Shown piece after piece: positions 986 through 44,153 of a DNA stretch of 50,290 nt. Numbering within the stretch: position 1 is the stretch's first letter; each line of letters starts with the position of its first letter. The notes below the pieces were generated by a model, which had not been told where the DNA came from, searched no databases, and was given only the letters and a program-made list of their open reading frames with translations. Source of the DNA: Escherichia phage JLBYU07; the sequence record OK272485.1; one strand, given 5' to 3'. A program made the position numbers and the translations under genes.

Positions 986-1462
986 TTAGCTATTTGTGCT
1001 GTTATCACCTTTGTAGAATCGTCCGCCTGGTTCGTAGTCTGAATTTTTGACTACGCGCAACATCTCGTATTTGTCGCAACGGGTAGTAAGAGGCTTACCG
1101 TTAGAATCAAACCGCAGATCTGGACGACAAAATGATGCGCGGTATCCTTTGCATCCATTATATTTGTAGTCGTTATGCACCTTTTGTGCTCCAGCGGCTG
1201 AAATCATACCACGCTTTCGCCATTGGTTAACGACTTGCTGAGATACGCGTAGACGTCGAGCCATAGCAGGAACACCGCCATAATACTCGATCAGAATATC
1301 CAAGCGAGATTTCAGGCTTGCTTTTACCTCATCTCGCAGGATAAGAAATCCGGTTCGGTGTTTTCGTGGCTTTTTGTCTTTACCTCGTCGCGTTCCGTTG
1401 TTACCGTTAATAGTGCGCTTGTCGATCTCACCCGTAGACACCGCAATTCGTGCATCTTTCAT
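986..1462 (-). CDS. HTH-containing DNA-binding protein
   Basis: 158 aa; GAGGTG RBS; helix-turn-helix-like segment AMARRLRVSQQVVNQWRKRG; basic N-terminus. Confidence 0.5.
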   Translation of the reverse strand: MKDARIAVSTGEIDKRTINGNNGTRRGKDKKPRKHRTGFLILRDEVKASLKSRLDILIEYYGGVPAMARRLRVSQQVVNQWRKRGMISAAGAQKVHNDYKYNGCKGYRASFCRPDLRFDSNGKPLTTRCDKYEMLRVVKNSDYEPGGRFYKGDNSTNS

Positions 1463-1473
1463 CTAGTCACCTC

Positions 1474-1493
1474 ATAGCATTTTTTGTTAAAAC
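1474..1493 (+). promoter_or_regulatory. conserved intergenic box copy (variant ATAGCATTTTTTGTTAAAAC)
   Basis: divergent region between 986-1462 and helicase; antisense copy abuts RBS of minus gene. Confidence 0.6.
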
Positions 1494-1549
1494 AGTTTAT
1501 TGTAATGAGTCTATTATATACTCCAAATGGCATTTTTTAAAGGTTTAAG

Positions 1550-4775: not shown

Positions 4776-5015
4776 ATGGAAAAAGAGAGAAGCGTTTTAC
4801 TTAATGAGGATGGCGAATTTCTTTTATATCGCGCTATGGTGTGCGACTGTATGGAAAAAAATTCGTTCGTTAAGCCATATATTGATTGCGATTTGTGGGA
4901 GTTTTCCGGCTGCCTGGATATGAGTTTTGAGGAAACTAGAAAACATCCTCTTGAAAAATGGCATGAAATAATTGCTAAAGACCTGCAAGAATTTTACGAT
5001 TCAGCGATCAAATAG
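4776..5015 (+). CDS. hypothetical Cys-rich protein
   Basis: 79 aa; GGAG RBS 8 nt upstream of ATG 4776; track ORF 4665 start lies inside dam; stop TAG in conserved box. Confidence 0.55.
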   Translation: MEKERSVLLNEDGEFLLYRAMVCDCMEKNSFVKPYIDCDLWEFSGCLDMSFEETRKHPLEKWHEIIAKDLQEFYDSAIK

Positions 5016-5031
5016 CACTTTTTGTTAAAAC
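5011..5031 (+). promoter_or_regulatory. conserved intergenic box AATAGCACTTTTTGTTAAAAC
   Basis: exact copy; TAG is stop of gene 4776-5015; followed by hairpin and ATAATT. Confidence 0.65.
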
Positions 5032-5087
5032 GCCCAGCCTAGTGTCGGGCATAATTATTTCAACGAAACAAACATGAGGAAATAAAA

Positions 5088-5267
5088 ATGGTAGTATTCG
5101 ATAAACGCGCTTTTAATCTTGCTCAAGAGGTGGCAAAAGGTTCAGTGGATGGCGATTCAAAGGAAGGATTCCAGTTTGATTGGGAGATCGCAATGTTTTT
5201 ACTGAAAGTTGCATACGGTCACGCACCAATTGAACAAGCGGAGGCATATTATAAGCATGAAGGTTGA
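5088..5267 (+). CDS. hypothetical small protein
   Basis: 59 aa, below ORF-track threshold; GAGGA RBS; hand-translated MVVFDKRAFNLAQEV... Confidence 0.5.
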   Translation: MVVFDKRAFNLAQEVAKGSVDGDSKEGFQFDWEIAMFLLKVAYGHAPIEQAEAYYKHEG

Positions 5268-5499
5268 GCAAGGAAGAGATGCGGTATGGAATCACGCTAA
5301 AGAATGCGGTATTGCCGACGACATAAAGAAGATCGCGCAATACTTTGATATTGCAGATGTGAGCATAATTAGCGGCGACAAGATGACTTTCCTCAAGGAA
5401 AGGCCGCGAAAAATGGTAAGAGTTCCAGCAGTTCCAACAAAAATTGATTTCAAAGAGGCAATGGCTAAAATCCGAGAGCCTCGCAAATATTATAAATGA
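5257..5499 (+). CDS. hypothetical protein
   Basis: 80 aa; ATG 5257 overlaps stop of upstream small gene; GGAGG RBS. Confidence 0.5.
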   Translation: MKVEQGRDAVWNHAKECGIADDIKKIAQYFDIADVSIISGDKMTFLKERPRKMVRVPAVPTKIDFKEAMAKIREPRKYYK

Positions 5500-5593
5500 T
5501 GATAGTTATCATGTGGCGCTTGTTTGTTCTACCGTTACCCGTTATCATCGCTGTTACAGTTATGTACCATATAGTGATGAGATAGGTAGCAGA

Positions 5594-6855: not shown

Positions 6856-7071
6856 ATGAAAGATTTTATTAACGCAGCTACCGCCGGATCTGGCGGTTCA
6901 TCTATCGCAAGCGCCGCTACAGGGCAGTTAACCATTGCTATTGCCAGTTTTGTTTTAATGGCTGCATTCGGTGCGTGGGGCGCTTACCTTCGCTGGCGTG
7001 ATAGTAAAAAATTCCACGAGGCGATCGAAAAAGGTGATATTCAAAAAGCTATTGAGATCAGGGGCAAGTAA
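6856..7071 (+). CDS. holin (single-TMD, pinholin-like)
   Basis: 71 aa; one hydrophobic helix [19 protein letters not shown], charged C-terminus; directly precedes endolysin. Confidence 0.6.
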
Positions 7072-7562
7072 TGAGCATAAAGAACATGGTAGCGGCGGCG
7101 GCCTTTGGCGTTGCGGTTGCCTTGACTTCTCCACTTCTTGAAGAGATCGAAGGGGTAAGATACAAGCCATACAAAGATATTGCGGGAGTATGGACGGTTT
7201 GCGCAGGAATCACCGGACCCGATGTTATCCTGGGGAAAACGTACACTAAAAAAGAGTGTGATGCTTTGTTGGCTAAGCATATCCAGGTTGCTAAAAAGGA
7301 AGTTGACAAGCAAGTTAAGGTTTACATTCCTGATAGTATGCGTGCAGCAATGTACTCATTCACTTACAATGCAGGTGTGGGAGCTTTCAGAAATTCAACA
7401 ATGCTGAAACTCATCAACCAGGGGAAATTAAACGAGGCTTGCGATCAGCTTTATCGTTGGGCTTATTACCATAACCCAAAAACAGGAAAGCGAGAGAAGT
7501 CTAAAGGCTTGCTTAACAGGCGCAAGGTCGAATACAAATATTGCACAATGGATCTTAAATGA
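7071..7562 (+). CDS. SAR endolysin (T4-lysozyme-like muramidase)
   Basis: 163 aa; N-terminal signal-anchor-release helix [14 protein letters not shown]; catalytic E-x8-D-x5-T ([19 protein letters not shown]). Confidence 0.75.
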
Positions 7563-7954
7563 TGAAGAAATTTTTACTTACACCAATCGCAATGGCGGTG
7601 ATCTTGTCTGGATGTTCAAGCGTTACGCCACTGACCGGATTAATCGGCAGTAAGCCGGAAATCACAGCGCAGGCTGGCGCGGAGAACGTGAAGCAGACAG
7701 TTGGCATTACAGCAAGGCAGGACGCCAGCACAAAACAGGAAACCACAATAAAGGAATCTGCGGTTGACAAGGTGGACACGTCCAGCAAGAAGGATTTCAC
7801 AACATCAACCATTCAGGCCAATACCATCAAGGCAGACAAAATTCAGGTCGTGCAGGGTAATAACGGCAGATGGTACGATCCAGTAATCATATGCGTGGTT
7901 GTGTTTCTTGTGCTGATTTGTCTTTACTGGATAGAAAAGAAAAAGGAGGCTTAA
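7559..7954 (+). CDS. unimolecular spanin (T1 gp11-type)
   Basis: 131 aa; lipobox LSGC after signal peptide plus C-terminal [20 protein letters not shown]; ATGA overlap with endolysin. Confidence 0.7.
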
Positions 7955-11110: not shown

Positions 11111-11816
11111 TTGAATTTGACTCAAAGACGGCGCGAGCAAATCCGCGCGGAGTGAGGGAGCGTAGTTGCTTTGTTCTGGCAGACTTACCGCCTAAAAACT
11201 TCCAACCCCAAAAGAACATTACGCCATCATCATTGGATAACGGCTTGCGTTCCGGTTCGGTAAATCCGTTGCCGCACCAGATAGCCGTCCTTTTAGTGTA
11301 GCCATCCTTTAGCGGCATTTTGGGGTGAAATGACCCATCGGATTCGTCCAAGTAGTTACCAAAATCGCGCGGATTGAAATAAAAATCCGGCTTGCGCCAT
11401 AGCGTTGATAGTCGGCCTACCGGATTCTCAGCCATCCAGGGAACACCGAAATGATTTCCGACTTTTTCAACCATGATTGCATTTTGGAGCGCGATATGAA
11501 TATCGTCTTCGCTGCGCACATGCTTACTTCCTGATTGGGCGAACATGGTGCAGTCTGGAAAGCCAAATACAATATCAGGTTTTGGAATATCCATCTTAAT
11601 GATGTTTTCAATGAAATTTTCATCAATCCACATATTCACATAATGCAGATTTTCATGCTTCATTTTGATGAAATATTCTCCGTGATTGCCTTCGTCAGCG
11701 TTAAAGCAATAGCATTGATAACCAGCCTTCGCATATTCAAGCAACATGATTCCAGATCCATCAAACATTGAGTAAGCAACTTTATTTCCCATGATTTTTA
11801 TGATACCCCAATTCAT
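11106..11816 (-). CDS. compact C5-cytosine methyltransferase-like protein
   Basis: about 236 aa (start ambiguous 11792/11816/11852); motif I FDGSG, motif IV-like GFPDCTMFAQSG, motif VI ENP, motif VIII-like KRTAIWC; minimal TRD, no clear motif X; stop TAG in box. Confidence 0.45.
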   Translation of the reverse strand: MNWGIIKIMGNKVAYSMFDGSGIMLLEYAKAGYQCYCFNADEGNHGEYFIKMKHENLHYVNMWIDENFIENIIKMDIPKPDIVFGFPDCTMFAQSGSKHVRSEDDIHIALQNAIMVEKVGNHFGVPWMAENPVGRLSTLWRKPDFYFNPRDFGNYLDESDGSFHPKMPLKDGYTKRTAIWCGNGFTEPERKPLSNDDGVMFFWGWKFLGGKSARTKQLRSLTPRGFARAVFESNSK

Positions 11817-12309
11817 TCTCGGCTTTACGTTTTGCGGCAACAGCATCTCCAAAACTGGAGAAACAACCTATATAAATCCTACTTCCTCGCTTTCCGCTTC
11901 CAACCCTTACAATCCACTTGCCATGTTTATTTTTATGCACGCCTGGTATGCCACTTGTATTGTTTTTCTGCTTTGATGTGTTTCGCATATTTCCTTTGTG
12001 ATCTTTTAACTCAAAGTTTATTGCTCTGTTATCAGTCGTAATGTGATTTACGTGATCAACCTCCATTCCTTCCGGTATAGGCCCATAGTGCATTTCATAG
12101 CATATTCTATGAACTTTCAGGTTATAACGTTTTCCGTTTACAGTAAGTGCGGTTTCTAAATATCTGCCACCACTACCCAAAGAGCCAACCTCATTACCAG
12201 CATTACAAGCATTCCATTGTTTAACTCTTGATTGGTGAATATCTTTTCTTTCTTTCCAGAACAGCTTTCCGGTTTCTGGATTGTATGTAAAGTAATCGTG
12301 CCAATTCAT
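11782..12309 (-). CDS. HNH homing endonuclease (with AP2-like DNA-binding domain)
   Basis: 175 aa; HNH core EVDHVNHITTDNR; C-terminal GIPGVHKNKHGKWIVRV...YIGCFSSFGDAVAAKRKAE; GAGGT RBS. Confidence 0.8.
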   Translation of the reverse strand: MNWHDYFTYNPETGKLFWKERKDIHQSRVKQWNACNAGNEVGSLGSGGRYLETALTVNGKRYNLKVHRICYEMHYGPIPEGMEVDHVNHITTDNRAINFELKDHKGNMRNTSKQKNNTSGIPGVHKNKHGKWIVRVGSGKRGSRIYIGCFSSFGDAVAAKRKAENELGYHKNHGK

Positions 12310-12317
12310 TCATTACC

Positions 12318-12542
12318 TCAAAACGGAAAACAGCGCGCACAACCAGGATCGAAATCGCATCCACAATCATTAACAATCATAGTGGGATCTGCAAATATTG
12401 CGCTTGATTCAAGATCCATATCCATATCACCTAAAGCCTCATCAAGAGTCTTAATTTTATATGCCACTTCAAGCGCCGCCTCTTTATTTAGTCCGGCATC
12501 TTCTGCCATTTGAAGGCGCTCAAAAAATCCGTCTTGACTCAT
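12318..12542 (-). CDS. hypothetical acidic protein
   Basis: 74 aa; acidic, Cys cluster at C-terminus. Confidence 0.45.
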   Translation of the reverse strand: MSQDGFFERLQMAEDAGLNKEAALEVAYKIKTLDEALGDMDMDLESSAIFADPTMIVNDCGCDFDPGCARCFPF

Positions 12543-12655
12543 CGCATAATCCCCTTAATAACAGCCAAGATAATAGCCAGGCCAGCAGCAGTAACCAAAA
12601 AGCCAACCGCGCCAATAATCGAATAAAAAAAGAAATCAATAGCCTTATCTATCAT
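12539..12655 (-). CDS. small single-TMD membrane peptide
   Basis: 38 aa, below track threshold; GAGGTG RBS; MIDKAIDFFFYSIIGAVGFLVTAAGLAIILAVIKGIMR; stop overlaps next ATG. Confidence 0.5.
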   Translation of the reverse strand: MIDKAIDFFFYSIIGAVGFLVTAAGLAIILAVIKGIMR

Positions 12656-12697
12656 TTTCCACCTCATTTAAAAGGCGGCAAAACGCCGCCAGATTAA

Positions 12698-12925
12698 TTA
12701 AAGAGCACGCCAACTTTGAATATAGAAAGCGTTTTCTTCCAGTAATTCTTTTAACTGATCTTTATTGTATTTGCGCACCTTACCGCCTGGATGGATACCA
12801 ATAAGATAGCCGCCTTTGCCCTCGGTGATAGTGATTTGGCTAATTCCACAAGACTTATCAAGTTTTACAGCAACGCGGTGATGAGCGTCAATAGTTGACA
12901 TAATGTTTAAAACTTTTGCTTTCAT
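12698..12925 (-). CDS. hypothetical protein
   Basis: 75 aa; GAGGA RBS. Confidence 0.5.
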   Translation of the reverse strand: MKAKVLNIMSTIDAHHRVAVKLDKSCGISQITITEGKGGYLIGIHPGGKVRKYNKDQLKELLEENAFYIQSWRAL

Positions 12926-13033
12926 TTAAATATCCTCAATTGAAATATGAATGACGTGGCGCTCTTTTTCCGTCGCCGCCGTAATGGTCATTTGCAACCG
13001 CCACCATCCAAGCGTTTTTGAAAATAAATAGCC

Positions 13034-13246
13034 TCATTTCTTATTTTTCAGCTTAAATTTATGACCTGGAACACCAGCGCCAATATACCCATCGTTGTAT
13101 TCCATTAAATAAAGGTGAAGACCATTATCTGAAATTACATGAGGATCTTCTTTGAGATTTCCCATTAGTGGATATTCTTTTCCGCGCGTAAATTTCCAAA
13201 TTGAGTTATAAGTTTCTACGCATTTAAGTTTTAATTGCTTTGCCAT
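13034..13246 (-). CDS. hypothetical protein
   Basis: 70 aa; TAATG coupling with upstream gene. Confidence 0.5.
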   Translation of the reverse strand: MAKQLKLKCVETYNSIWKFTRGKEYPLMGNLKEDPHVISDNGLHLYLMEYNDGYIGAGVPGHKFKLKNKK

Positions 13247-13527
13247 TATGCGATCCCAGTTACGTTAAAACTTACAGCCTTTGTTGCGCTAAATACATAA
13301 GCATCAACAGCGCCGCCAAATACACGAATTTTACCCTGGCCGTACTGCGCATTCATATTTCGCCAAACCGTTCTATTAGAGCAGAATGCGCTACCAGTCT
13401 TAATAAGCGTATCCATCTCTTTTCTTAGATCGCGATAGTCCAGCCAGAATCTAAAGGCACGCTGTTTAATTCGCGCCGCCTTGATTTTTTCTCTTGCGCT
13501 ATTGAAATCATTCTTTTCGTATGCCAT
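13246..13527 (-). CDS. hypothetical protein
   Basis: 93 aa; TAATG coupling. Confidence 0.5.
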   Translation of the reverse strand: MAYEKNDFNSAREKIKAARIKQRAFRFWLDYRDLRKEMDTLIKTGSAFCSNRTVWRNMNAQYGQGKIRVFGGAVDAYVFSATKAVSFNVTGIA

Positions 13528-13724
13528 TAAATGATCTCCATGTATGTTTCAAAGCCATTTAACTTGAACAGTCCGTTTTCACATTTGCGCACGTTCCAAG
13601 TTAGCCCTGAGTGGTACGCCTCCATATCATCAAGGTCAATGGTGATTTCAGCACCTTTCTTAAACAAACCTTTTTCGTGAGACTTGTCGCGCTTAACAAC
13701 TTTAACATCAACCTGATTTTCCAT
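13527..13724 (-). CDS. hypothetical protein
   Basis: 65 aa from ATG 13724 with GAGGA RBS (track start 13775 non-ATG). Confidence 0.5.
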   Translation of the reverse strand: MENQVDVKVVKRDKSHEKGLFKKGAEITIDLDDMEAYHSGLTWNVRKCENGLFKLNGFETYMEII

Positions 13725-13778
13725 CTTTAAATCCTCGTTTGTTGTCGATGGGTGTAATATACCATTCAGGAGCACATC

Positions 13779-13800
13779 GTTTTTAACAAAAAGTGCTATT
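13779..13800 (-). promoter_or_regulatory. conserved intergenic box copy (minus orientation)
   Basis: between genes 13800-14063 and 13527-13724. Confidence 0.6.
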
Positions 13801-14063
13801 TAGTCCAGGAATTCGATTTCACGCTCTCCAGTTAACGGATCCACAAGCCAGAATCCGAGCGGTTCGCCGTGAACACCGCCATAGAATCCAAGCGCCGTCA
13901 GATCTTCACCTTTAACAAATACCAGTTTTCCGCTACGGCCTACGTGAGACACGTTAACGATAACCGGAAATGTGCGATCCTTAAATGCAGGACGCAGGGC
14001 GTAACATCCGTTGTTGAGCAAACGTGCTTTGCGCTTAACTGGAATAGGTGCATTAATTTTCAT
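13800..14063 (-). CDS. hypothetical protein
   Basis: 87 aa; AAGGAG RBS. Confidence 0.5.
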   Translation of the reverse strand: MKINAPIPVKRKARLLNNGCYALRPAFKDRTFPVIVNVSHVGRSGKLVFVKGEDLTALGFYGGVHGEPLGFWLVDPLTGEREIEFLD

Positions 14064-14075
14064 GGTTATTACTCC

Positions 14076-14288
14076 TTATCGTAAAGATTTAAAGACGTAT
14101 AGTTTATTGCGGTAACTATATATCCGCATTGTTATTTCTCGCAGTGCAATATATTCCTTCCTGTTTTCCGGCAGACTGGCGAGCAACAACAGGCAGTATT
14201 TATAAGCGCGGTCAAGATTTCTTTCCGTGCCCCTGCAATATCCCTTGTTGCGCCTGGAGCGGTACAGCCATAACAATTTCTTGAACAT
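14076..14288 (-). CDS. hypothetical Arg/Cys-rich protein
   Basis: 70 aa; ATG 2 nt after stop of upstream gene; upstream part of track ORF 14076-14474 rejected. Confidence 0.3.
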   Translation of the reverse strand: MFKKLLWLYRSRRNKGYCRGTERNLDRAYKYCLLLLASLPENRKEYIALREITMRIYSYRNKLYVFKSLR

Positions 14289-14289
14289 T

Positions 14290-14499
14290 TCAGATACGCC
14301 CATACAGATCGCAAACTTCGTTGATAAAACAGCGTTGAGACTCTTTATCCTGCTTCTCAAACATCGCACGGCACTCATAGCGGTGATTATGCACGATGAC
14401 AACAACCATATTTTCAGGCGCTGACGGGTGACGCGCGGAAGCGTCGCAGATTGAAACATCCATACCCATCTCATGTGCTTTCTTGATCACATCCAACAT
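14290..14499 (-). CDS. hypothetical protein
   Basis: 69 aa from ATG 14499 with AGGAG RBS. Confidence 0.45.
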   Translation of the reverse strand: MLDVIKKAHEMGMDVSICDASARHPSAPENMVVVIVHNHRYECRAMFEKQDKESQRCFINEVCDLYGRI

Positions 14500-14753
14500 T
14501 TTTTCTTCTCCTGCAATAAGCAAACATCATTGATAAAATCAGTGCGGCCCTTAATGTTGCTGATGTGGAACGTCTTTTCAGCGTACAGGCCATCACCTTC
14601 AATCACGATCATTACGCGAGTCGGTTTATTCACGGGCGCACATGAAAATAGTGGGCGCACCGGAAGAAATTTAGTAGCCACATCCAGGTTAGCCCTGGCG
14701 GCCCTGCAAAACGCCTCCGCCAGATCCAAATCATTTTCGGTAATCACCGCCAT
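14487..14753 (-). CDS. hypothetical protein
   Basis: 88 aa; TAATG coupling to upstream gene. Confidence 0.5.
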   Translation of the reverse strand: MAVITENDLDLAEAFCRAARANLDVATKFLPVRPLFSCAPVNKPTRVMIVIEGDGLYAEKTFHISNIKGRTDFINDVCLLQEKKKCWM

Positions 14754-15025
14754 TACTTCTTGATCTCCTTACTGATAAATTTCAGCACCTGGCGCAAGAA
14801 AACTTCGTTGTTGATAGTCGCTGGCAATTCTTCTTTCACTTCTTGCGGCAGATAGATATTACCGTGCCAGGTCAAGCAATCGTAGTTAATACGATAAGAG
14901 CAAAGCCACTCGCAATCGTTATCTGCTTCCCATATGCAGAGTTGCAGAACATCGCCAAAATCTTCAACAGTCAGATCCAGACCGTGACGCTTAGCGAAAT
15001 TGAAAGTGGTTTTGCTGATGTTCAT
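14753..15025 (-). CDS. hypothetical protein (first gene of leftward early operon)
   Basis: 90 aa; AGGAG RBS; downstream of divergent control region. Confidence 0.5.
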   Translation of the reverse strand: MNISKTTFNFAKRHGLDLTVEDFGDVLQLCIWEADNDCEWLCSYRINYDCLTWHGNIYLPQEVKEELPATINNEVFLRQVLKFISKEIKK

Positions 15026-15084
15026 TTACTATCTCCTGAGCGGTTCGTTTCGATGTGTGTAATGTACCCGATCAGGTGGCCTGA

Positions 15085-15106
15085 GTTTTAACAAAAAGTG
15101 CTATTT
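15085..15106 (-). promoter_or_regulatory. conserved intergenic box copy (minus orientation)
   Basis: at head of leftward early operon, about 60 nt upstream of gene 14753-15025. Confidence 0.6.
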
Positions 15107-15134
15107 GACGGTTATCGCCAGGATTGCGATCGAA

Positions 15135-15212
15135 ATAATCAAAAGTAATCATTCGTAATCAAATCACGTCAAAATGATGATTGCCTTTGCAAATTTGATG
15201 AGAAAAGTAATC
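15135..15212. promoter_or_regulatory. cluster of TAATCA iteron-like repeats in divergent control region
   Basis: AGTAATCATTCGTAATCAAATCACG ... AGTAATCACGTTTAATCATTGG; four or more TAATCA units. Confidence 0.45.
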
Positions 15213-15659
15213 ACGTTTAATCATTGGTTGCAGGGGAGATAGTGAAACCTTCCCCTCTTGCCTCACTTTTCCGCCTGGCTGTCAGTGGTTGTTGTCTTTT
15301 GTTCACCCCTGTTACCGATTTCAGGCGGCGTGTTTCCGCGCGGTTTTCCGGTGTAGCGAAAACGGAAAAAACAAAAAAAATCCTATATAATACATTGAAA
15401 ATAAAGATTATTTATTTATATATATCTATAATGTTTTCTTTTTGTTCTCACTGTTACAGTGCTTTTTGTTGGGTGTGGTGTGGTTGTGTGTTGGTATATA
15501 TGGATAGTTGCGCGCGCGGCGGATTGCATATGTATATATACTTTTTCCGGCGGATTGCGTTAACAGCGCGAACAGAAAAATAACAGCCCTGAAATCAACA
15601 ACTTGCGCATGATTTTGTAGTTTTTCGATATTGGTAACGTTTTGAATACAACAAAAACA

Positions 15660-15687
15660 TTGACACGCACCAAATAGCTTTTATAAT
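15660..15687 (+). promoter_or_regulatory. near-consensus sigma70 promoter (TTGACA-N16-TATAAT)
   Basis: TTGACA at 15660-15665, TATAAT at 15682-15687; about 30 nt upstream of GGAGG RBS of gene 15719. Confidence 0.6.
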
Positions 15688-15718
15688 GCGCCAACAGTCA
15701 ACAACTGGAGGAAAGGAA

Positions 15719-16183
15719 ATGGAACAGAAGACCACTAAGGACTATTGCGATTGGCTTCGCGAGCTTGGTCGCCGCCTGGCTAGTGGCGATATTGAAGAGT
15801 ATAAAATGTCACTAATTGACCTGGCCGGAATGTTAAGCGGTGACGACTGCTACAAGATCACGCGCAGTTCATCCTACAGCCGGACCATTATCAACCGCGT
15901 TCCAGAAGTAAGGGCCGCAGGTCGGGTAAGCATCAAGGTAGAGGAAACGGAAGATGATAAATTTTACGTTTTCCGCATGGTCCGCGAATCGAAAAGGAAA
16001 ATCATCACGCCAGAAGAATTGCCAGCCATCAAGGCAAGGGCGATCAAAAAGTTTGCCGATCGCTTACTGGCAGCAATCCCGAATATCGTTGACCTGGAAG
16101 GGGATAAACTGGCTGGGGCTTGCGAGGGCGTAAGCCGCTACCAGGATATGATCCGCGAAATCATCAAAGAGGAAGAGCAATGA
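15719..16183 (+). CDS. hypothetical early protein
   Basis: 154 aa from ATG 15719 (GGAGG RBS); track start 15686 lies inside the -10 hexamer. Confidence 0.55.
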   Translation: MEQKTTKDYCDWLRELGRRLASGDIEEYKMSLIDLAGMLSGDDCYKITRSSSYSRTIINRVPEVRAAGRVSIKVEETEDDKFYVFRMVRESKRKIITPEELPAIKARAIKKFADRLLAAIPNIVDLEGDKLAGACEGVSRYQDMIREIIKEEEQ

Positions 16184-16452
16184 AAAAGGCATTAATCAGC
16201 GTTTTGGCGGCAATGGCATTCCTGACCGGATGCAAAGAAGATGGCGCGCATGTTGGCAATGTGCAGATGGCTAACCCTGGCGATGCCTACAGCGTAAGGG
16301 AGCTATTCACCGCTGACGGTTGCACCGTTTACCGATTCTATGACGATCGCACTGTTTACTTCACCAACTGCAAGGGCGCTACTAGCTGGGAAGTGTCGAA
16401 AAGCAATGGCAAAGGCACGAAGACAGAACATATGACCGTCGAAACAAAATAG
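16180..16452 (+). CDS. lipoprotein (candidate receptor-blocking superinfection-exclusion protein)
   Basis: 90 aa from ATG 16180; signal peptide plus lipobox LTGC; stop TAG in conserved box. Confidence 0.55.
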   Translation: MKKALISVLAAMAFLTGCKEDGAHVGNVQMANPGDAYSVRELFTADGCTVYRFYDDRTVYFTNCKGATSWEVSKSNGKGTKTEHMTVETK

Positions 16453-16468
16453 CACTTTTTGTTAAAAC
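16448..16468 (+). promoter_or_regulatory. conserved intergenic box AATAGCACTTTTTGTTAAAAC
   Basis: exact copy; TAG is stop of lipoprotein gene; ATAATA 23 nt after TTGTTA. Confidence 0.65.
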
Positions 16469-16469
16469 T

Positions 16470-16694
16470 CAAAAGCGATAACCAGGCATAATACACACAT
16501 AGACGGGCGGCAAGGATTGCTGCGGGAGAGGAGTAACGCAGGGGCTTGATCGAAGTGTCAGGATTCCCAACCGTGAGGCCAGAACTATCACACTAGCCAC
16601 CAGGCAGAACGCTAGATAGGTCACTGAGCTGAGGCTACCGACGAAGTGAAGCCCGTCACCAAAGATTAAACGGTTATTTATGTGAAAGGGGTTA
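16470..16694 (+). ncRNA. candidate structured non-coding RNA or long structured leader
   Basis: 225 nt with no ORF in any plus frame, GC-rich; long-range pairing GACGGGC (16502-16508) with GCCCGTC (16651-16657); internal hairpins CTGCG...CGCAG and CTAGC...GCTAG. Confidence 0.3.
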
Positions 16695-16877
16695 ATGATG
16701 GATAAGATCATCAAAATGAGCGAAGTCAAGCCGGGAATGATGGTTAAGTTTGCTGGCAAATATCGCCTAGTGCTGGATAACTGCCGCAAAGAGAACATTC
16801 TTACCATTCGTGTAAATGGCAAGGCGCAGCTATTCGCCCCTAGCTCAGATATTGACGTTGAAGTTAGAATTAAGTAA
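16695..16877 (+). CDS. hypothetical protein
   Basis: 60 aa; AAAGGGG RBS. Confidence 0.45.
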   Translation: MMDKIIKMSEVKPGMMVKFAGKYRLVLDNCRKENILTIRVNGKAQLFAPSSDIDVEVRIK

Positions 16878-16892
16878 TTAGGAGGAAACACC

Positions 16893-17786
16893 ATGTTAAA
16901 ACTTGCTGACATTAAATTCCCGATCACCTTCGAATCTCGCGGCATTGGTCATTACATTTTTACCGATGAAAAAACATGCCATAAGGTTGATTTGTATAGC
17001 TACAAGCGTGAGCCATCAAGCATGGAGATTGAACACTTCATTGATGCACATAACAAGCACTACAACGCACTTAAAGACTATGGCTACGCAATGCCAGGAT
17101 ATACCAGCTTCCACTACAAGCCATACAAGGGCCAGGTGTTACCAGTTCGCTCACCGGAACGCGCAGAGATTCCGATGGTCAATATGAAAACCTGCGACTA
17201 CAAAAAGCTGTGGTGCTTAAGTGTGGACAATATCAAGTATCCGATCACGTTCCACACAACTGGTAACTCAACGATTCGCTTCACATCACGCGACAATGGC
17301 GTTTATAGCGATGGTCAGAAATCAGAGTTGAAAGTTGATTTCTTTGTCAACGGTCACAACAAATTCAATCCGCACAACGAAGAGGATAAAGTGTATTACG
17401 TGGAAGACATTACAAAACACTTGTTTGGAGAAACTCCATTCGGCGGCGGGAAGACGGCAGTTCAGAAAATCATTGGCGAGGAGATCCACAAAGCGGCTGT
17501 CGAAATGAAAGCGCCTGGAGGCTGGCGTATTGACAAGAGCGCCTTTGCCTATCAAGAAATCGTAACGCAGGGCGCGATTGAAGATATGCCAGTTACAGCC
17601 ACGCTAAAAGGAGTCCGGCTTGATGACGGCAGTTGGTATGAATTAACGGCTACACCAAAGACGATCGAAATTCATGATGATGTTGTTATCCTTCTGCTTC
17701 ACTACGGCGGCACTAAAAACCGGACTGTTGCAGGTGAGATCAGCATCAAGCGCGGAACGATGGTTAAGTGGAAGGTGAAGATTTGA
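16893..17786 (+). CDS. hypothetical protein with internal tandem domain duplication
   Basis: 297 aa; AGGAGG RBS; two related ~100-aa segments (ADIKFPITFESRGIGHYIFT / DNIKYPITFHTTGNSTIRFT; HFIDAHNKHYN / FFVNGHNKFNP). Confidence 0.55.
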   Translation: MLKLADIKFPITFESRGIGHYIFTDEKTCHKVDLYSYKREPSSMEIEHFIDAHNKHYNALKDYGYAMPGYTSFHYKPYKGQVLPVRSPERAEIPMVNMKTCDYKKLWCLSVDNIKYPITFHTTGNSTIRFTSRDNGVYSDGQKSELKVDFFVNGHNKFNPHNEEDKVYYVEDITKHLFGETPFGGGKTAVQKIIGEEIHKAAVEMKAPGGWRIDKSAFAYQEIVTQGAIEDMPVTATLKGVRLDDGSWYELTATPKTIEIHDDVVILLLHYGGTKNRTVAGEISIKRGTMVKWKVKI

Positions 17787-17862
17787 GTTTGTTCACTGCG
17801 GCGCACGTCGCCGCATGGATCGGATTGTTTGCCTACCTGTTTAGCTTTTATTGAGGTGAGAG

Positions 17863-18015
17863 ATGGCTACATGGATTTTGCTGATTCTTATGATTGATGG
17901 CGGCGTTGACCATATCGAAATGAATAGCCAGCAATCTTGCATTGAGGCACGAGAGCAGATCAAGAACAACAACAGGTTTTATGCGTACACTCGCACGCTA
18001 TGTATTAAGAAATAG
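17863..18015 (+). CDS. hypothetical small protein
   Basis: 50 aa, below track threshold; GAGGTGA RBS; stop TAG in conserved box. Confidence 0.45.
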   Translation: MATWILLILMIDGGVDHIEMNSQQSCIEAREQIKNNNRFYAYTRTLCIKK

Positions 18016-18031
18016 CACTTTTTGTTAAAAC
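18011..18031 (+). promoter_or_regulatory. conserved intergenic box AATAGCACTTTTTGTTAAAAC
   Basis: exact copy; TAG is stop of small gene 17863-18015. Confidence 0.65.
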
Positions 18032-18084
18032 TCAAATGTGGGGCCAGGTATAATGGCCTCACTTTCAACGAAGGAGATAAAACG

Positions 18085-18303
18085 ATGTACATTAAAAAGA
18101 AGATGAAATGCGTTTCCGTTAACTATGCTTGCTCTGGCATGTTCAAGCCTGGCGAAATCTATACGGCGCAAAAACTGAAAACATCAACCGGATCTTTTTA
18201 CGTGAGCAATAGTAAGGGACATCGCATGTTCCTGAACGGCGGCGAAGGCACTAAGGTTATGGCACACGCTATGGTAATGGCTGAATTTGAGGAAGTGAAA
18301 TAA
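18085..18303 (+). CDS. hypothetical protein
   Basis: 72 aa from ATG 18085 with AGGAG RBS. Confidence 0.5.
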   Translation: MYIKKKMKCVSVNYACSGMFKPGEIYTAQKLKTSTGSFYVSNSKGHRMFLNGGEGTKVMAHAMVMAEFEEVK

Positions 18304-18305
18304 TC

Positions 18306-18515
18306 ATGGATCAGAACAAAACAGCAAAATATAAATTCACTGACGACTACGGAGACACTATCGACGTTTATCAGCGTGGGAATCAGATCTTTATAGATGG
18401 CACTTTCGAATATGGCCGGATGCCAGACTTTCGGGGAATACTTTCGTCAGATAGCGCGCGACGCATGGCGAACGTGTTAAATGAACTGGCGGCAAAGATT
18501 GAGGCGATGCAATGA
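18306..18515 (+). CDS. hypothetical protein
   Basis: 69 aa; tightly spaced after upstream gene. Confidence 0.5.
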   Translation: MDQNKTAKYKFTDDYGDTIDVYQRGNQIFIDGTFEYGRMPDFRGILSSDSARRMANVLNELAAKIEAMQ

Positions 18516-18826
18516 AAAAATACACTTTCGAACTGTGGGGCAAGAAGTACGAATTAATCACCAGCAAGCCGATTGTTGTGTGCGATCTCGACGGCACACT
18601 ATCGGACGGCGCGCCTAGCTTCTTTGCTATCCATTCTATTGACGGCAAGGATATTGGGTACAACGTTATCCGTCGAGATGGAATATCAAAACTTAGTGAC
18701 CTGGTAGGCCATATTGTGTCAATCGGGAAATGCGCATGGCCCGATTCGCCACGAGAGCCGCGCCGCCGCGACATGGTAGATCCTGTTCTGCTTTACACCA
18801 TGGTAGTAGAAGGAGAAAATAAATGA
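18512..18826 (+). CDS. hypothetical protein with HAD-like DxDGT motif
   Basis: 104 aa; VVCDLDGTLSDG resembles HAD phosphatase motif I, other HAD motifs not evident. Confidence 0.4.
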   Translation: MKKYTFELWGKKYELITSKPIVVCDLDGTLSDGAPSFFAIHSIDGKDIGYNVIRRDGISKLSDLVGHIVSIGKCAWPDSPREPRRRDMVDPVLLYTMVVEGENK

Positions 18827-19008
18827 TTTGGTTACTTGCTTTTTTGGTTGTTTTTCTTTACATTTCAGGCTTGTTTACGTTCCGCGCGTTGGTGAAATAT
18901 TCTGACGCGACAGACAAAGACGATAAAATCGTTCTCGCTTTCTGGTTTGTTTGGGTGTGGTTAGCAATTTACGAGATCATCAGAGACAAACAGAAATTTG
19001 AGTGGTGA
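18823..19008 (+). CDS. small membrane protein (two predicted TMDs)
   Basis: 61 aa; hydrophobic helices WLLAFLVVFLYISGLF and LAFWFVWVWLAIY. Confidence 0.5.
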   Translation: MIWLLAFLVVFLYISGLFTFRALVKYSDATDKDDKIVLAFWFVWVWLAIYEIIRDKQKFEW

Positions 19009-19065
19009 TTCTTGCTATGGCGCATTCATGCAGTGCGCCATGTTGAGAAAACCTAAAGGGGGGAA

Positions 19066-19218
19066 ATGATGCGTAACTTTGAAAAAATCATTACCAAAAA
19101 GAAGCGTCGCGGGTACGATGAGCATGTGGAGCTTGTGAAAAAGCAACGCAAGAAGCGCAACGAAGACAAGAAGCGCGGGAAAAAATTTAATGCGATTTTT
19201 CGCTATGGAGATCATTAA
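19066..19218 (+). CDS. small highly basic protein
   Basis: 50 aa, below track threshold; GGGGGG RBS; Lys/Arg-rich (KKKRRG, KKQRKKRNEDKKRGKK); antisense track ORF 19015-19215 rejected. Confidence 0.45.
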   Translation: MMRNFEKIITKKKRRGYDEHVELVKKQRKKRNEDKKRGKKFNAIFRYGDH

Positions 19219-19220
19219 TC

Positions 19221-19811
19221 ATGAAACGAGACATTATCATCCTTAATGGGCCGCCAGGTTGCGGGAAGGACACTATTGCAGCTTACCTAACGGGCCATCG
19301 TTACCCTGCCGTCAAGGCGTCATTCAAACAGCCGATGTTCGATATTGCTTTTTCTATGCTGGGCGTGTACCGATACGATGAATTTATGGACCTGTACAAC
19401 GACCGAGAGCAAAAAGAAAAGCCTCAAGTTATCTTGGGCGGCAAGTCACCTCGACAATTCATGATCTGGATTAGCGAGGATGTAATGAAGCCAGTTTTTG
19501 GGGATCACTATTTCGGGCGTCGAATGGTTGAAGAGATTCACGAGATGTACCGAGATTTGGCGGTTGTGATCAGTGATGGCGGATTCCCCGAAGAAATAAA
19601 GCCGCTGGTTAAGGCAGGGCATGAAGTGCATATTTGCCGATTGCATCGCGACGGCTTCACGTTTGCTGGCGATTCGAGAGACTATATTGACCTGAGCGGT
19701 TATCACTATCGAATCCATCACTATGACTTCCAATTGCAGGACGGCAAGCCGGAACTGGCTGTAAACGAGATCGTCAATGCTGTCAAATGGAAACACACGC
19801 AGATTAAATAG
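19221..19811 (+). CDS. P-loop nucleotide/nucleoside kinase-like protein
   Basis: 196 aa; Walker A ILNGPPGCGKDT at N-terminus; stop TAG in variant box. Confidence 0.5.
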   Translation: MKRDIIILNGPPGCGKDTIAAYLTGHRYPAVKASFKQPMFDIAFSMLGVYRYDEFMDLYNDREQKEKPQVILGGKSPRQFMIWISEDVMKPVFGDHYFGRRMVEEIHEMYRDLAVVISDGGFPEEIKPLVKAGHEVHICRLHRDGFTFAGDSRDYIDLSGYHYRIHHYDFQLQDGKPELAVNEIVNAVKWKHTQIK

Positions 19812-19881: not shown

Positions 19882-20262
19882 ATGGTTAACATCAGAAAAA
19901 TCCGCGTCGGCACTAAATTCTTAGTTACTTATGCAATTCCAGATAGCGGAATGAAGAAGGGCCAGATTGTTAAGGTTGATAGCAAAAGATTCGGAATCCC
20001 TGGTGTCAATGGCTATCTAATCAATAGAGATCTTGGATTCGACGGCTTCGCTATCCGTGCGCTTGAGGGTATTGTTGCCACTCTTAAACGAATCACTAAT
20101 CATCGCGGCTGCCCAATCAAGACGATTAAAGCGCCAGTAAATTACGGCAAACTGGATAATCGTCGAATCCGCCGCCTGGCGCGTAACGCGTTAAAATTCC
20201 GTGGCGTAGGCGATGATTTCTACTATGGTTACAAGAGGATCGCGCGCAATGCTGGGAAATAA
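19882..20262 (+). CDS. hypothetical protein
   Basis: 126 aa from ATG 19882 (GAGAG RBS); track start overlaps TATAAT. Confidence 0.5.
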   Translation: MVNIRKIRVGTKFLVTYAIPDSGMKKGQIVKVDSKRFGIPGVNGYLINRDLGFDGFAIRALEGIVATLKRITNHRGCPIKTIKAPVNYGKLDNRRIRRLARNALKFRGVGDDFYYGYKRIARNAGK

Positions 20263-20303
20263 CAATAACGCAACGAATCCTAAGCCACCTTTTGATTTTC
20301 ATT

Positions 20304-20318
20304 CCGCAATGATTGCGG
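20304..20318. promoter_or_regulatory. 15-bp perfect palindrome CCGCAATGATTGCGG (candidate operator)
   Basis: 7-bp arms with 1-nt centre, cannot form an RNA hairpin; about 45 nt upstream of gene 20362. Confidence 0.4.
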
Positions 20319-20361
20319 TATTATCAATGCTACTTTTTCTTTATAGCATGAGGGCGCTACT

Positions 20362-20610
20362 ATGGTTTTTAACGCATTGAAACGACTGTTTAAGCCGGAA
20401 TACCGGATCGTATTTTGCCGAGACTGTTCTACTTATCATGTGCAGCGACGCAGCTTAGGCGGCAATTGGCACTATGTTACAGACGACTTTTTCGGCATCA
20501 TTGCCACTGAATTTAAGTATTACAGCGATGCTTATATGTACGTGAAGAAGCGCCACCGCTTACGCAAGTGTCGTTTTTCCGTACTGATTCACGTTAATGA
20601 TTGTTACTGA
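20362..20610 (+). CDS. hypothetical Cys-containing protein
   Basis: 82 aa; preceded by a 15-bp perfect palindrome. Confidence 0.45.
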   Translation: MVFNALKRLFKPEYRIVFCRDCSTYHVQRRSLGGNWHYVTDDFFGIIATEFKYYSDAYMYVKKRHRLRKCRFSVLIHVNDCY

Positions 20611-22031: not shown

Positions 22032-22160
22032 ATGGATGAGTACAAACAACCCTCGCAATGGTGCAAAGAGAAGCAGGAGGAAGCACTTGAGCGCGGAGAT
22101 GTAGAAGAAGCTATGAACTATTTCAAACTTGCGGAAGAATGGAAGGGGAGAGGATACTGA
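22032..22160 (+). CDS. hypothetical small protein
   Basis: 42 aa, below track threshold; AGGTGA RBS; stop overlaps next ATG. Confidence 0.4.
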   Translation: MDEYKQPSQWCKEKQEEALERGDVEEAMNYFKLAEEWKGRGY

Positions 22161-43872: not shown

Positions 43873-43874
43873 TA

Positions 43875-44153
43875 TTACCCCCAAAAAGTATATATATATC
43901 TTGAGTCAGATCCAGAAAGTCCGCTCCATGTAACGGTATCACCACTTACACCTAAACTTGGAGCGCCTGGATCGCCTCCGCGCCACGAACTCATTCCAAC
44001 ATATATTGCTTTCAACGACTTACCTGGCGGCCTGTTTGAGTAGGTCTTACTGCCAGATGATTGAGTAAATTTATCCAAGAAAAAAACTGGAGTTAAAAGG
44101 CCAGTAACATTTCTACCTTGCTCATCATATATTGCATACCCATATTCAGCCAT
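43875..44153 (-). CDS. hypothetical protein (lipoprotein operon)
   Basis: 92 aa; overlaps end of lipoprotein gene. Confidence 0.5.
   Translation of the reverse strand: MAEYGYAIYDEQGRNVTGLLTPVFFLDKFTQSSGSKTYSNRPPGKSLKAIYVGMSSWRGGDPGAPSLGVSGDTVTWSGLSGSDSRYIYTFWG

What the first reader, a model, noticed from the sequence alone, without database searches (positions are those of the whole stretch)
12539..19218. Several well-supported genes fall below the 60-aa ORF-track threshold
Seen in sequence: hand translation finds RBS-preceded, translationally coupled small ORFs absent from the track: a 38-aa single-TMD peptide (12539-12655), a 50-aa basic protein (19066-19218), a 50-aa protein (17863-18015), a 59-aa protein (5088-5267) and a 42-aa protein (22032-22160). 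Such membrane and basic micro-proteins are frequent carriers of exclusion or anti-defence functions and are easily missed.
Basis: seen in the sequence. Interest (0 to 1): 0.35.

Follow-up and report, generated by a model that had tools for sequence, protein, structure and literature searches.

The report
Real small genes under ORF cutoff
Five short reading frames in this T1-like coliphage genome are genuine, conserved protein genes that were hidden only by a 60-codon display cutoff; public records already annotate them as hypothetical proteins, and their functions remain unknown.

Summary
The window is a near-complete T1-like coliphage genome (Drexlerviridae, Warwickvirus; about 97% identical to phage tunus, probably phage JLBYU07 itself). 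All five ORFs exist at the stated coordinates. A lies on the minus strand, and the conserved start of B is 3 nt downstream, at 19069.

An ORF of this size is not evidence on its own: 266 ORFs of at least 30 aa occur in 25 kb. Comparison with 140 related loci shows these five are real genes. Start codon, Shine-Dalgarno site and length persist down to 38-56% amino-acid identity. Substitutions are mostly synonymous; this is strong for C, D and E, good for B, and weak for A.

B resembles T7 gp1.1 and E belongs to the T7 gp1.8 family. C and D fall in function-unknown PHROG families. A is a single-pass membrane peptide found only in this lineage.

All five exact sequences are already NCBI proteins, labelled hypothetical (A sometimes mislabelled "TamB"). 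The finding is therefore a threshold artefact, not a discovery. No evidence supports an exclusion or anti-defence role.

Several small CDSs called in relatives have no support.

The parts
12539..12655 (-). Gene A: 38-aa single-pass membrane peptide, probably N-out/C-in by charge (weak inference). Invariant positions K4 D7 F10 G15 G18 V21 A24 G25 L26 I28 I29 K34.
   Evidence: Found in 63 phage records. ATG and SD are conserved in all 9 unique homologs among the loci, and the ATGA overlap in all 9 plus five further GenBank records. Within-clade nonsyn/syn ratios are 0.39 and 0.45. It is the best of the six frames.
12659..12665 (-). Shine-Dalgarno site GAGGTGG of gene A.
   Evidence: Kept as GGTGA or AAGGNGA in the divergent clade.
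12674..12690 (-). GC-rich hairpin followed by a T-run (terminator-like) between the upstream gene and gene A.
   Evidence: The stem is GGCGGC/GCCGCC in Warwickvirus-type genomes and GGGAGG/CCTCCC in the Hanrivervirus-type clade. Both fold at -13 to -17 kcal/mol with their flanks (48-nt stretches).
12318..12542 (-). 74-aa gene (phrog_9323, unknown function) whose ATG overlaps the stop of A (ATGA).
19069..19218 (+). Gene B: 49-aa (50 aa from 19066) strongly basic protein, T7 gp1.1-like. N-terminus MRNFEKI.
   Evidence: 5 of 9 pairwise tests for purifying selection give p<0.01.
19058..19063 (+). G6 run that forms the SD of gene B. Its length varies from 4 to 10 among near-identical relatives.
17863..18015 (+). 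Gene C: 50-aa protein, phrog_5579. Predicted beta-beta-alpha-beta fold. Cys26 and Cys47 conserved.
   Evidence: 97 phage records including T1 (48% identity). 14 of 14 pairwise tests give p<0.01.
18012..18054 (+). Promoter-like element ATAGCACTTTTTGTTAAAAC...TATAAT that begins inside the TAG stop of gene C.
5088..5267 (+). Gene D: 59-aa acidic protein, phrog_2180. Predicted three-helix bundle.
   Evidence: 255 phage records. 27 of 28 pairwise tests give p<0.01. AF2 pLDDT 83.9.
5012..5055 (+). Promoter-like element ATAGCACTTTTTGTTAAAAC...CATAAT. Gene D is the first gene after it.
22032..22160 (+). Gene E: 42-aa acidic protein, phrog_1312, the same family as T7 gp1.8. Its stop overlaps the start of the next gene (TGATG).
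   Evidence: 342 phage records. 25 of 27 unique homologs are exactly 42 aa; the other two are 41 aa (GTG start) and a 14-aa nonsense allele.
5496..5585 (+).
   Evidence: 17 homologs down to 52% identity, no stops, pN/pS 0.34.
12936..13037 (-).
   Evidence: pN/pS 0.20. 17 of 17 pairwise tests give p<0.01.
20249..20380 (+). In phage tuinn it is fused to the upstream gene.

Best explanation
The window is a T1-like virulent coliphage genome. The five ORFs are ordinary, genuine accessory genes in the regions of small, mostly function-unknown genes outside the structural module; that these are early or middle genes is inferred. They escaped the first-stage track only because each is shorter than 60 codons.

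Shown:
- Each ORF sits in an otherwise empty gap between same-strand genes.
- Each has its own Shine-Dalgarno site and ATG.
- Each keeps frame, start and length in relatives whose DNA has diverged to 50-70% identity.
- Each accumulates mostly synonymous change.

What each one is:
- B is a T7 gp1.1-like basic protein.
- E is a member of the T7 gp1.8 family.
- C is a small beta-beta-alpha-beta protein in a function-unknown PHROG family.
- D is a three-helix bundle in a function-unknown PHROG family.
- A is a 38-aa inner-membrane peptide confined to the Warwickvirus and Hanrivervirus lineage.

Inferred mechanism:
- The genes are transcribed on polycistronic mRNAs from host-type promoters. D follows one directly.
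- Each is translated from its own SD.
- In four cases the terminating ribosome is released at or within 11 nt of the next start codon, so the next gene can be read by re-initiation.
- As proteins of 38-59 residues, they most likely act as stoichiometric binders rather than enzymes.
- B most likely binds nucleic acid and contributes to host shut-off, as reported for T7 gp1.1 expressed together with Ocr.
- A, with the two other membrane peptides, most likely packs through its conserved small-residue face (G15, G18, A24, G25) against itself or a membrane protein.
- C, D and E most likely bind host or phage proteins during take-over.

The specific targets are unknown. An exclusion or anti-defence role is possible but untested.
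For: Identity of the genome: 97% to phage tunus. The exact D sequence is recorded once in NCBI, as JLBYU07_7, on a 50,290-bp contig, which is the length of this window.

Gene reality:
- tblastn finds A in 63, B in 69, C in 97, D in 255 and E in 342 phage records. Identity goes down to 63, 62, 36, 37 and 40%.
- In 130 related loci the start codon is ATG in 9/9, 13/13, 17/17, 29/29 and 26/27 unique homologs. An SD-like motif is present in 9/9, 11/13, 17/17, 29/29 and 27/27. Lengths are conserved.
- Pooled pN/pS is 0.58, 0.52, 0.40, 0.48 and 0.35. Accepted long genes give 0.21-0.55 (one at 0.61); clearly wrong-frame ORFs give about 0.75-3.2, with stops in most homologs.
- Pairwise Fisher tests with p<0.01: B 5/9, C 14/14, D 27/28, E 24/26.
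- Minimum changes per codon position follow pos3 > pos1 >= pos2 in all five; in B positions 1 and 2 are equal, 52 and 51.
- For A, within-clade syn/nonsyn counts are 8/10 and 15.7/22.3. The ratios are 0.39 and 0.45, with p=0.046 and 0.0097. It has the lowest or equal-lowest ratio of the six frames.

Families:
- phrog_5579 at 7.8e-23 (C), phrog_2180 at 7.7e-15 (D), phrog_1312 at 1.5e-17 (E).
- T7 gp1.8 hits phrog_1312 at 6.3e-15.
- B shares MRNFEK with T7 gp1.1 and hits PF08200.

Already annotated.

No RNA family and no tRNA explains the conservation.

The gp1.1 shut-off remark comes from PMC7064336.
Against: - No expression data (Ribo-seq, proteomics) were available, so translation is inferred.
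- A is the weakest case. Between-clade pairwise tests are not significant (p=0.07-0.26). Its mirror antisense frame gives a similar ratio in one clade. It has no family outside one 50%-identity cluster.
- Mirror antisense ORFs in general show low pN/pS. Strand assignment therefore rests on SD, ATG and overlap conservation and on operon strand.
- B scores below the Pfam cutoff, and its C-terminal half is indel-rich and low-complexity.
- Nonsense alleles exist in single relatives: A K34* in B1.2, C in L039, E in L011. C is absent from tunus. The genes are therefore dispensable at least sometimes.
- The homolog sets are not phylogenetically independent samples.
- All functional statements are inference. 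Fold searches gave nothing informative.
Confidence: 0.87

Rival explanations
1. The ORFs are chance open frames inside conserved non-coding sequence (promoters, terminators, leaders), or are mirror images of selection acting on the other strand. They are not translated.
For: ORFs of this size are abundant by chance. The intergenic regions here do carry conserved promoter-like and terminator-like elements next to A, C and D. Antisense mirror ORFs show low pN/pS too. For A, the mirror frame scores 0.34 against 0.39 in one clade, and between-clade tests are not significant.
Against: Protein similarity persists where nucleotide identity has fallen to 51-69% (synonymous sites are saturated for C). 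ATG, SD and length are conserved across clades. Changes follow pos3 > pos1 >= pos2 in the annotated frame. The regulatory elements lie outside the ORFs, apart from C's stop codon. The antisense start opposite A is lost (CAA to CAG) in L002, L055 and L057, and that ORF covers only part of the region (coordinates). No Rfam family matches.
Confidence: 0.04
2. One reading: these membrane and basic micro-proteins are superinfection-exclusion or anti-defence effectors.
For: They are small, non-structural genes with mosaic presence and absence, in accessory regions of the genome. In closely related phages a 66-aa non-essential protein, Gp54 of Bas11, interacts directly with a host immunity protein. 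Its authors suggest such proteins may inhibit other defences (PMC11578894). T7 gene neighbours of gp1.1 and gp1.8 include known host-factor inhibitors: gp1.2 inhibits dGTPase and gp2 inhibits RNA polymerase.
Against: There is no similarity to any characterised exclusion or anti-defence protein. PADLOC, NCBIfam, the PDB sequence search and the fold searches gave nothing informative; A was not put to the PDB search. A has no cysteine, so it is not a Cor or Llp-type lipoprotein. The Cor-type cassette of this genome is elsewhere. A published DefenseFinder scan of a T1-like genome found no anti-defence genes (PMC13164509). No anti-defence HMM library was available here.
Confidence: 0.2
3. The ORFs are real but effectively neutral passengers or decaying remnants, kept by linkage in a densely packed genome rather than by selection on a function.
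For: Nonsense or truncated alleles occur in single relatives for A, C and E. C is absent from tunus, and a 192-nt gene next to B is absent here. T7 gp1.8 is recorded as non-essential.
Against: Conservation spans subfamilies and, for E, families of phages. There is a strong excess of synonymous change. Invariant motifs survive saturation of synonymous sites: PSQWC and ALERGD in E, FDW..AM in D.
Confidence: 0.07

Closest known systems
T7 gp1.1 (Pfam PF08200, Phage_1_1)
   Same: B shares the N-terminal MRNFEK(I/M) motif, the size (49 against 42 aa) and the strongly basic composition. It is 38% identical over 37 aa. All 12 aligned family members hit PF08200 at E<0.1.
   Different: The window protein scores 18.6 bits, below the 21-bit cutoff. 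It falls in a different PHROG (8176 against 2490). It is not followed by a gp1.2 homolog but by a P-loop dNMP kinase. Its SD is a variable poly-G run. The function of gp1.1 is itself unknown.
T7 gp1.8 (phrog_1312)
   Same: E and T7 gp1.8 both match phrog_1312 over the full length (1.5e-17 and 6.3e-15). They share the (S/E)WC ... Y.KL.E.WK.RG pattern. Both are small, acidic, and overlap or abut the next gene.
   Different: 35% identity with a 7-residue gap. E lacks the 14-residue N-terminal extension of gp1.8. Its neighbours differ: a phrog_303 gene, not genes 1.7 and 2. Function is unknown in both; gp1.8 is non-essential in T7.
PHROG 5579 and PHROG 2180 (function-unknown families of T1-like phages)
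   Same: C and D match them at 7.8e-23 and 7.7e-15. Homologs occur in T1 itself.
   Different: Nothing distinguishes the window copies. The families have no assigned function, no Pfam model and no solved structure.
Small hydrophobic phage proteins such as T7 gp1.4 and gp1.5 (analogy only)
   Same: A, and the extra genes at 5496-5585 and 20249-20380, are 29-43 aa and consist mostly of one hydrophobic helix, like the 51-aa and 29-aa T7 proteins read.
   Different: No sequence homology: the best local match was E about 1 in a nine-sequence comparison. A's family is confined to one lineage. The functions of the T7 proteins are also unknown.
Gp54 of phage Bas11 (66-aa trigger of CapRel-SJ46)
   Same: A small, non-essential protein of unknown primary function in a closely related Drexlerviridae phage. 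It shows that such genes can matter for immunity (PMC11578894).
   Different: It is 66 aa and forms a beta-barrel. None of the four window proteins searched (B-E) matched any PDB sequence, which would include its crystal structure. It is a precedent, not a relative.

Membership tests
Pfam PF08200 Phage_1_1 (T7 gp1.1) | HMM score at or above the curated gathering cutoff (21 bits) | tested here: not met
   B scores 18.6 bits, E 0.0027. All 12 aligned relatives hit at E<0.1, best 3.4e-14 (the alignment includes T7 gp1.1).
Pfam PF08200 Phage_1_1 (T7 gp1.1) | N-terminal MRNFEK motif followed by a short, lysine- and arginine-rich chain of about 40-55 aa | tested here: met
   M R N F E are invariant across the alignment, T7 gp1.1 included. 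K+R 19 of 50.
Pfam PF08200 Phage_1_1 (T7 gp1.1) | Gene placed directly upstream of a gp1.2 (dGTPase inhibitor) homolog | tested here: not met
   The downstream gene is a P-loop dNMP kinase. The small proteins compared with T7 gp1.2 showed no significant similarity. The whole window was not searched for a gp1.2 homolog.
phrog_1312 (T7 gp1.8 family) | Full-length profile match shared with T7 gp1.8 | tested here: met
   E: 1.5e-17 over residues 1-42 of 42. T7 gp1.8: 6.3e-15. Pairwise 35% over 40 aa.
phrog_1312 (T7 gp1.8 family) | T7-like position between nucleotide kinase gene 1.7 and RNA polymerase inhibitor gene 2 | tested here: not met
   E lies 2.2 kb downstream of an unrelated kinase and is coupled to a phrog_303 gene.
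phrog_5579 | Full-length profile match | tested here: met
   C: 7.8e-23 over residues 1-50.
phrog_2180 | Profile match over most of the protein | tested here: met
   D: 7.7e-15 over residues 1-49. 80 database relatives, all unnamed or 'hypothetical'.
TamB translocation/assembly module (name given to A in some GenBank and RefSeq records) | Match to a TamB domain model and a large (over 1000 aa) protein | tested here: not met
   No Pfam or NCBIfam hit for A even at E<=1 and E<=0.1 respectively. A is 38 aa. The label appears and is unsupported.
Cor/Llp-type exclusion lipoprotein | Signal peptide ending in a lipobox cysteine | tested here: not met
   A contains no cysteine. The Cor-type cassette maps to 43258-44421.
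Holin or other lysis-cassette membrane protein | Location in the holin-endolysin-spanin cassette | tested here: not met
   The lysis cassette is at 6856-7954 on the other strand. A lies between function-unknown genes.
Anti-defence or exclusion effector (any known kind) | Homology to a characterised effector, or a demonstrated phenotype | not testable with these tools
   No anti-defence library was available. PADLOC (defence proteins) gave no hit. No PDB sequence match for B-E, and no informative fold match for the C and D models. A phenotype needs experiments.

The most novel reading that the evidence does not exclude
At least one of these micro-proteins is a host-takeover or counter-defence effector with a mechanism not yet described. 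Two readings are the most specific.

1. B is a gp1.1-type host shut-off factor shared by T1-like and T7-like phages. Its translation is tuned, or switched within populations, by the hypervariable poly-G Shine-Dalgarno tract (4-10 G among near-identical genomes).

2. The three single-helix membrane peptides (A, 5496-5585, 20249-20380) act on inner-membrane host proteins to block superinfection or a membrane-based defence.
Probability: 0.15. Interest if true: 0.5.

Novelty: already known. Interest (0 to 1): 0.15.

Why it matters
As a discovery it matters little. The genes are already annotated and four of the five are already placed in protein families, so the finding mainly documents a blind spot of a 60-aa ORF track.

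It is useful as quality control. In this genome at least eight well-supported genes lie below 60 aa. Several small CDSs that PHANOTATE-style annotation places in relatives have no support.

The functions of these families are unknown in all phages that carry them, T1 and T7 included. About half of T1's proteins, mostly small ORFs, are uncharacterised (PMC13164509). Small proteins of closely related phages have turned out to be immune triggers. These genes are therefore reasonable targets for systematic knock-out or expression screens, but nothing here singles them out.

Tried and rejected
- Structure-based function assignment. The AF2 model of D is a three-helix bundle (pLDDT 83.9). It matched nothing in the PDB (best E 4.3) and only its own uncharacterised family in BFVD.
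- The single-sequence AF2 model of C is beta-beta-alpha-beta (pLDDT 73). It had no PDB match better than E about 1. The low-ranking resemblance to phage PZA p56 (TM 0.34) is noise.
- PDB sequence searches gave nothing for B, C and D. For E they gave only a weak resemblance to consensus TPR helices (E 0.004, 18 residues), too short to mean anything.
- The kinase downstream of B has the same length as T7 gp1.7 (196 aa) but is unrelated.
- Gene context is uninformative. All neighbours are function-unknown PHROGs, except an HNH endonuclease.
The exhaustive representative search found only A's own cluster plus one spurious multi-TM protein.
- The exact-sequence contig look-up for D found nothing.
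- pN/pS alone cannot settle the strand, because mirror antisense frames score similarly.
- Counts of variable columns saturate in deep alignments and gave weak p-values. Minimum-change counts were used instead.
- A literature search for the promoter-like 20-mer returned only unrelated hits.

Full report
What the window is. A 10.5-kb stretch is 96-97% identical to Escherichia phage tunus, FritzSarasin (Bas04), swan01 and about 25 other phages assigned to the genus Warwickvirus (Drexlerviridae, Tempevirinae). Transfer of the tunus annotation covers the whole window. This includes terminase, head, tail, lysis, recombination and replication genes. The exact protein sequence of ORF D is recorded once in NCBI, as JLBYU07_7 of Escherichia phage JLBYU07, on a contig of 50,290 bp, which is the window's length. 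The window is therefore very probably that phage genome.

The observation. All five ORFs exist at the stated coordinates. A (12539-12655) is on the minus strand. It encodes MIDKAIDFFFYSIIGAVGFLVTAAGLAIILAVIKGIMR, which has a single hydrophobic core flanked by charged ends. B (19066-19218) has 19 Lys+Arg in 50 residues. C, D and E are as described. Each has an SD-like motif 3-9 nt before the ATG: GAGGTGG, a G6 run, GAGGTGA, GAGGA and AGGTGA.

Coupling is real only towards the downstream gene. A ends in ATGA, E in TGATG, D overlaps the next gene by 11 nt, and B is followed after 2 nt by the dNMP kinase. C is followed by 69 nt that contain a promoter-like element. Upstream gaps are 42-76 nt.

Is it more than chance? 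The ORFs alone are not: 266 ORFs of at least 30 aa occur in the first 25 kb. I therefore fetched 127 IMG/VR loci anchored on two neighbouring genes, plus GenBank regions. I scored every ORF of at least 25 aa in the window against them.

- Accepted long genes give uncorrected pN/pS of 0.21-0.55 (one at 0.61).
- Clearly wrong-frame ORFs give about 0.75-3.2 and carry stops in most homologs.
- The five candidates give 0.58 (A), 0.52 (B), 0.40 (C), 0.48 (D) and 0.35 (E). Between 9 and 30 unique homologous sequences were used, with almost no stops.
- Pairwise Fisher tests for an excess of synonymous change reach p<0.01 in 5/9 (B), 14/14 (C), 27/28 (D) and 24/26 (E) comparisons.
- Against four relatives with an identical E protein there are 7-8 synonymous and 0 non-synonymous differences.
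- Minimum changes per codon position follow pos3 > pos1 >= pos2 for all five; in B positions 1 and 2 are equal.
- In every unique homolog the aligned start is an ATG, with one GTG for E. An SD-like motif precedes it in 93 of 95 cases. Lengths are conserved: E is exactly 42 aa in 25 of 27 homologs, and C is 49-51 aa in 16 of 17.
- tblastn against 50,697 phage records finds A in 63, B in 69, C in 97 (including T1 at 48%), D in 255 and E in 342. The E hits include T7-like, Erwinia, Vibrio and Pseudomonas phages.
- No Rfam family or tRNA lies in the window.

A caveat, and the weakest case. Mirror antisense ORFs, whose third positions coincide with those of the true frame, also show low pN/pS. The ratio therefore cannot settle the strand.

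For A, between-clade comparisons are not individually significant (p=0.07-0.26). Within-clade counts are modest: 8 synonymous against 10 non-synonymous changes, and 15.7 against 22.3. The ratios are 0.39 and 0.45, with p=0.046 and 0.0097. The mirror frame scores about the same in one clade.

What decides for A is the alignment. Genomes as distant as the Hanrivervirus phage BEK7, about 52% identical in the peptide, keep the following order:
- stop of the upstream gene;
- a GC-rich hairpin with a different stem sequence (GGGAGG/CCTCCC instead of GGCGGC/GCCGCC) followed by a T-run;
- an SD;
- an ATG;
- a 36-38-codon hydrophobic frame with twelve invariant positions, including G15, G18, A24 and G25;
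- an ATGA overlap with the next gene.

The TTG start of the antisense ORF is lost in three genomes. A is on the strand of all its neighbours. I put the probability that A is a real gene at about 0.85, and the other four at 0.9-0.97.

What they are.
- B shares its first seven residues with T7 gp1.1 (MRNFEKI against MRNFEKM) and is 38% identical over 37 aa. It hits Pfam PF08200 (Phage_1_1) at 18.6 bits, below the 21-bit cutoff. All 12 aligned relatives hit that model at E<0.1. In four relatives the first ATG is ACG, so the conserved product is the 49-aa form starting at 19069.
- E and T7 gp1.8 both match phrog_1312 over the full length, at 1.5e-17 and 6.3e-15.
- C matches phrog_5579. D matches phrog_2180. 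Both are function-unknown.
- A has no family. An exhaustive HMMER scan of 1.84 billion representatives finds only its own cluster.
- AF2 predicts a three-helix bundle for D from a 46-sequence alignment (pLDDT 83.9). For C it predicts a beta-beta-alpha-beta unit from a single sequence (pLDDT 73). Neither has an informative structural neighbour.
- PDB sequence (searched for B-E only), PADLOC and NCBIfam searches are empty. All neighbouring genes are function-unknown, except an HNH endonuclease.

Already known. Relatives annotate these ORFs as CDSs. The exact sequences of all five are NCBI proteins, and the names listed for A, B, C and D include products of phage JLBYU07. The label 'translocation/assembly module TamB' attached to A in some records has no support: there is no Pfam or NCBIfam hit, and A is 38 aa.

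The literature agrees that these families are recognised but uncharacterised.
- gp1.8 is listed as non-essential.
- About half of T1's proteins, 'predominantly small ORFs', are undetermined (PMC13164509).

How they most likely work (inference). D is the first gene after one of 14 copies of a promoter-like element, ATAGCACTTTTTGTTAAAAC followed 18-19 nt later by (C/T)ATAAT. C ends inside another copy. A follows a terminator-like hairpin, so it is read only from read-through or processed transcripts. Each gene has its own SD, and four of them hand the ribosome to the next gene.

Proteins this small are almost certainly binders.
- B probably binds nucleic acid and assists host shut-off.
- A, with the peptides at 5496-5585 and 20249-20380, probably packs through a small-residue helix face against itself or a membrane protein.
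- C, D and E probably bind host or phage proteins.

The only support is precedent. The 66-aa Gp54 of the related phage Bas11 is a direct trigger of CapRel, but it is not related to any of these proteins (PMC11578894).

Three further sub-60-aa genes are at least as well supported:
- 5496-5585 (+): 29 aa, hydrophobic, 17 homologs, pN/pS 0.34.
- 12936-13037 (-): 33 aa, invariant ANDHYGGDGKRA, pN/pS 0.20, 17 of 17 tests p<0.01, phrog_32259.
- 20249-20380 (+): 43 aa with a C-terminal membrane helix, pN/pS 0.36.

Conversely, small CDSs annotated in tunus that map to window positions 1450, 15159, 15289, 15428 and 44479-44809 have no SD, mostly non-ATG starts and no coding signal.

Verdict. Novelty: already known. 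Interest is low.

Noticed in passing
window 19058-19063 (+): The Shine-Dalgarno site of gene B is a poly-G run. Its length is 4, 5 (x9), 6, 7 and 10 in 13 otherwise near-identical genomes. It is one of only two G/C runs of at least 6 in the window. A preprint proposes homopolymer runs of at least 6 as phage contingency loci and includes the relative SECphi27 (10.1101/2025.10.21.683753). The run could tune or switch translation of the gp1.1-like protein.
   Followed up: partly
window 3963, 5012, 10435(-), 11109(-), 13799(-), 15104(-), 16449, 18012, 19808, 21102, 25321, 29964(-), 33716(-), 50202: Fourteen copies of ATAGCAC(T/G)(T/A)(T/A)TTG(T/C/A)(T/C)AA..., mostly ATAGCACTTTTTGTTAAAAC. In about ten, a (C/T)ATAAT-like box follows after 18-19 nt. 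The core heptamer occurs 17 times against 5.6 expected. The element usually starts in the TAG stop of the preceding gene, and often has an inverted repeat in the spacer. It is probably the phage's promoter type. No mention was found in the paper library. Two copies are antisense to the structural genes.
   Followed up: partly
window 12674-12690 (-): A terminator-like hairpin lies immediately upstream of gene A. It is conserved as a structure with two different stem sequences in two phage clades.
   Followed up: partly
window 47237-47932 (-): The homolog of a 245-aa tunus protein carries an in-frame stop here (Tyr to stop), which splits it into 160-aa and 51-aa ORFs. It also lacks a 20-residue repeat unit. 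The protein has a C-terminal GLIAEEVGE.APEYVHW motif typical of tail-fibre intramolecular chaperone domains.
   Followed up: partly
window 11782-12309 (-): An HNH endonuclease (PF13392, 9.5e-15) lies between the gene coupled to A and the DNA methyltransferase. It is absent from tunus and present in Poky. The methyltransferase here is only 46% identical to that of tunus.
   Followed up: no
window 18512-18826 (+): This 104-aa ORF looks like a deletion fusion. Its first 34 residues match the start of the tunus polynucleotide kinase (179 aa), and the rest matches residues 15-87 of a downstream tunus gene. The window therefore appears to lack an intact polynucleotide kinase.
   Followed up: no
window 19210-19221 (+): The window lacks the 192-nt gene that separates B from the dNMP kinase in tunus and FritzSarasin. 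The junction changes the last two residues of B.
   Followed up: partly
window 20213-20380 (+), with 19882-20262: The 43-aa membrane-helix ORF overlaps the end of the upstream 126-aa gene in another frame. In phage tuinn the two are fused into one 172-aa protein. Either an indel polymorphism or frameshifting may produce a membrane-anchored form.
   Followed up: no
window 1450-1548, 15159-15266(-), 15289-15390, 15428-15568, 44479-44809(-): These are positions where the tunus record annotates CDSs of 29-46 aa. They show no SD, mostly non-ATG starts and no coding signature, and one contains a stop in the window. They are likely over-calls in regulatory regions.
   Followed up: partly
L134 (phage vB_Eco-B1.2), L039, L011: Single relatives carry nonsense alleles of A (K34 to stop, leaving the membrane helix), of C and of E. 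These may be sequencing errors or signs that the genes are dispensable.
   Followed up: no
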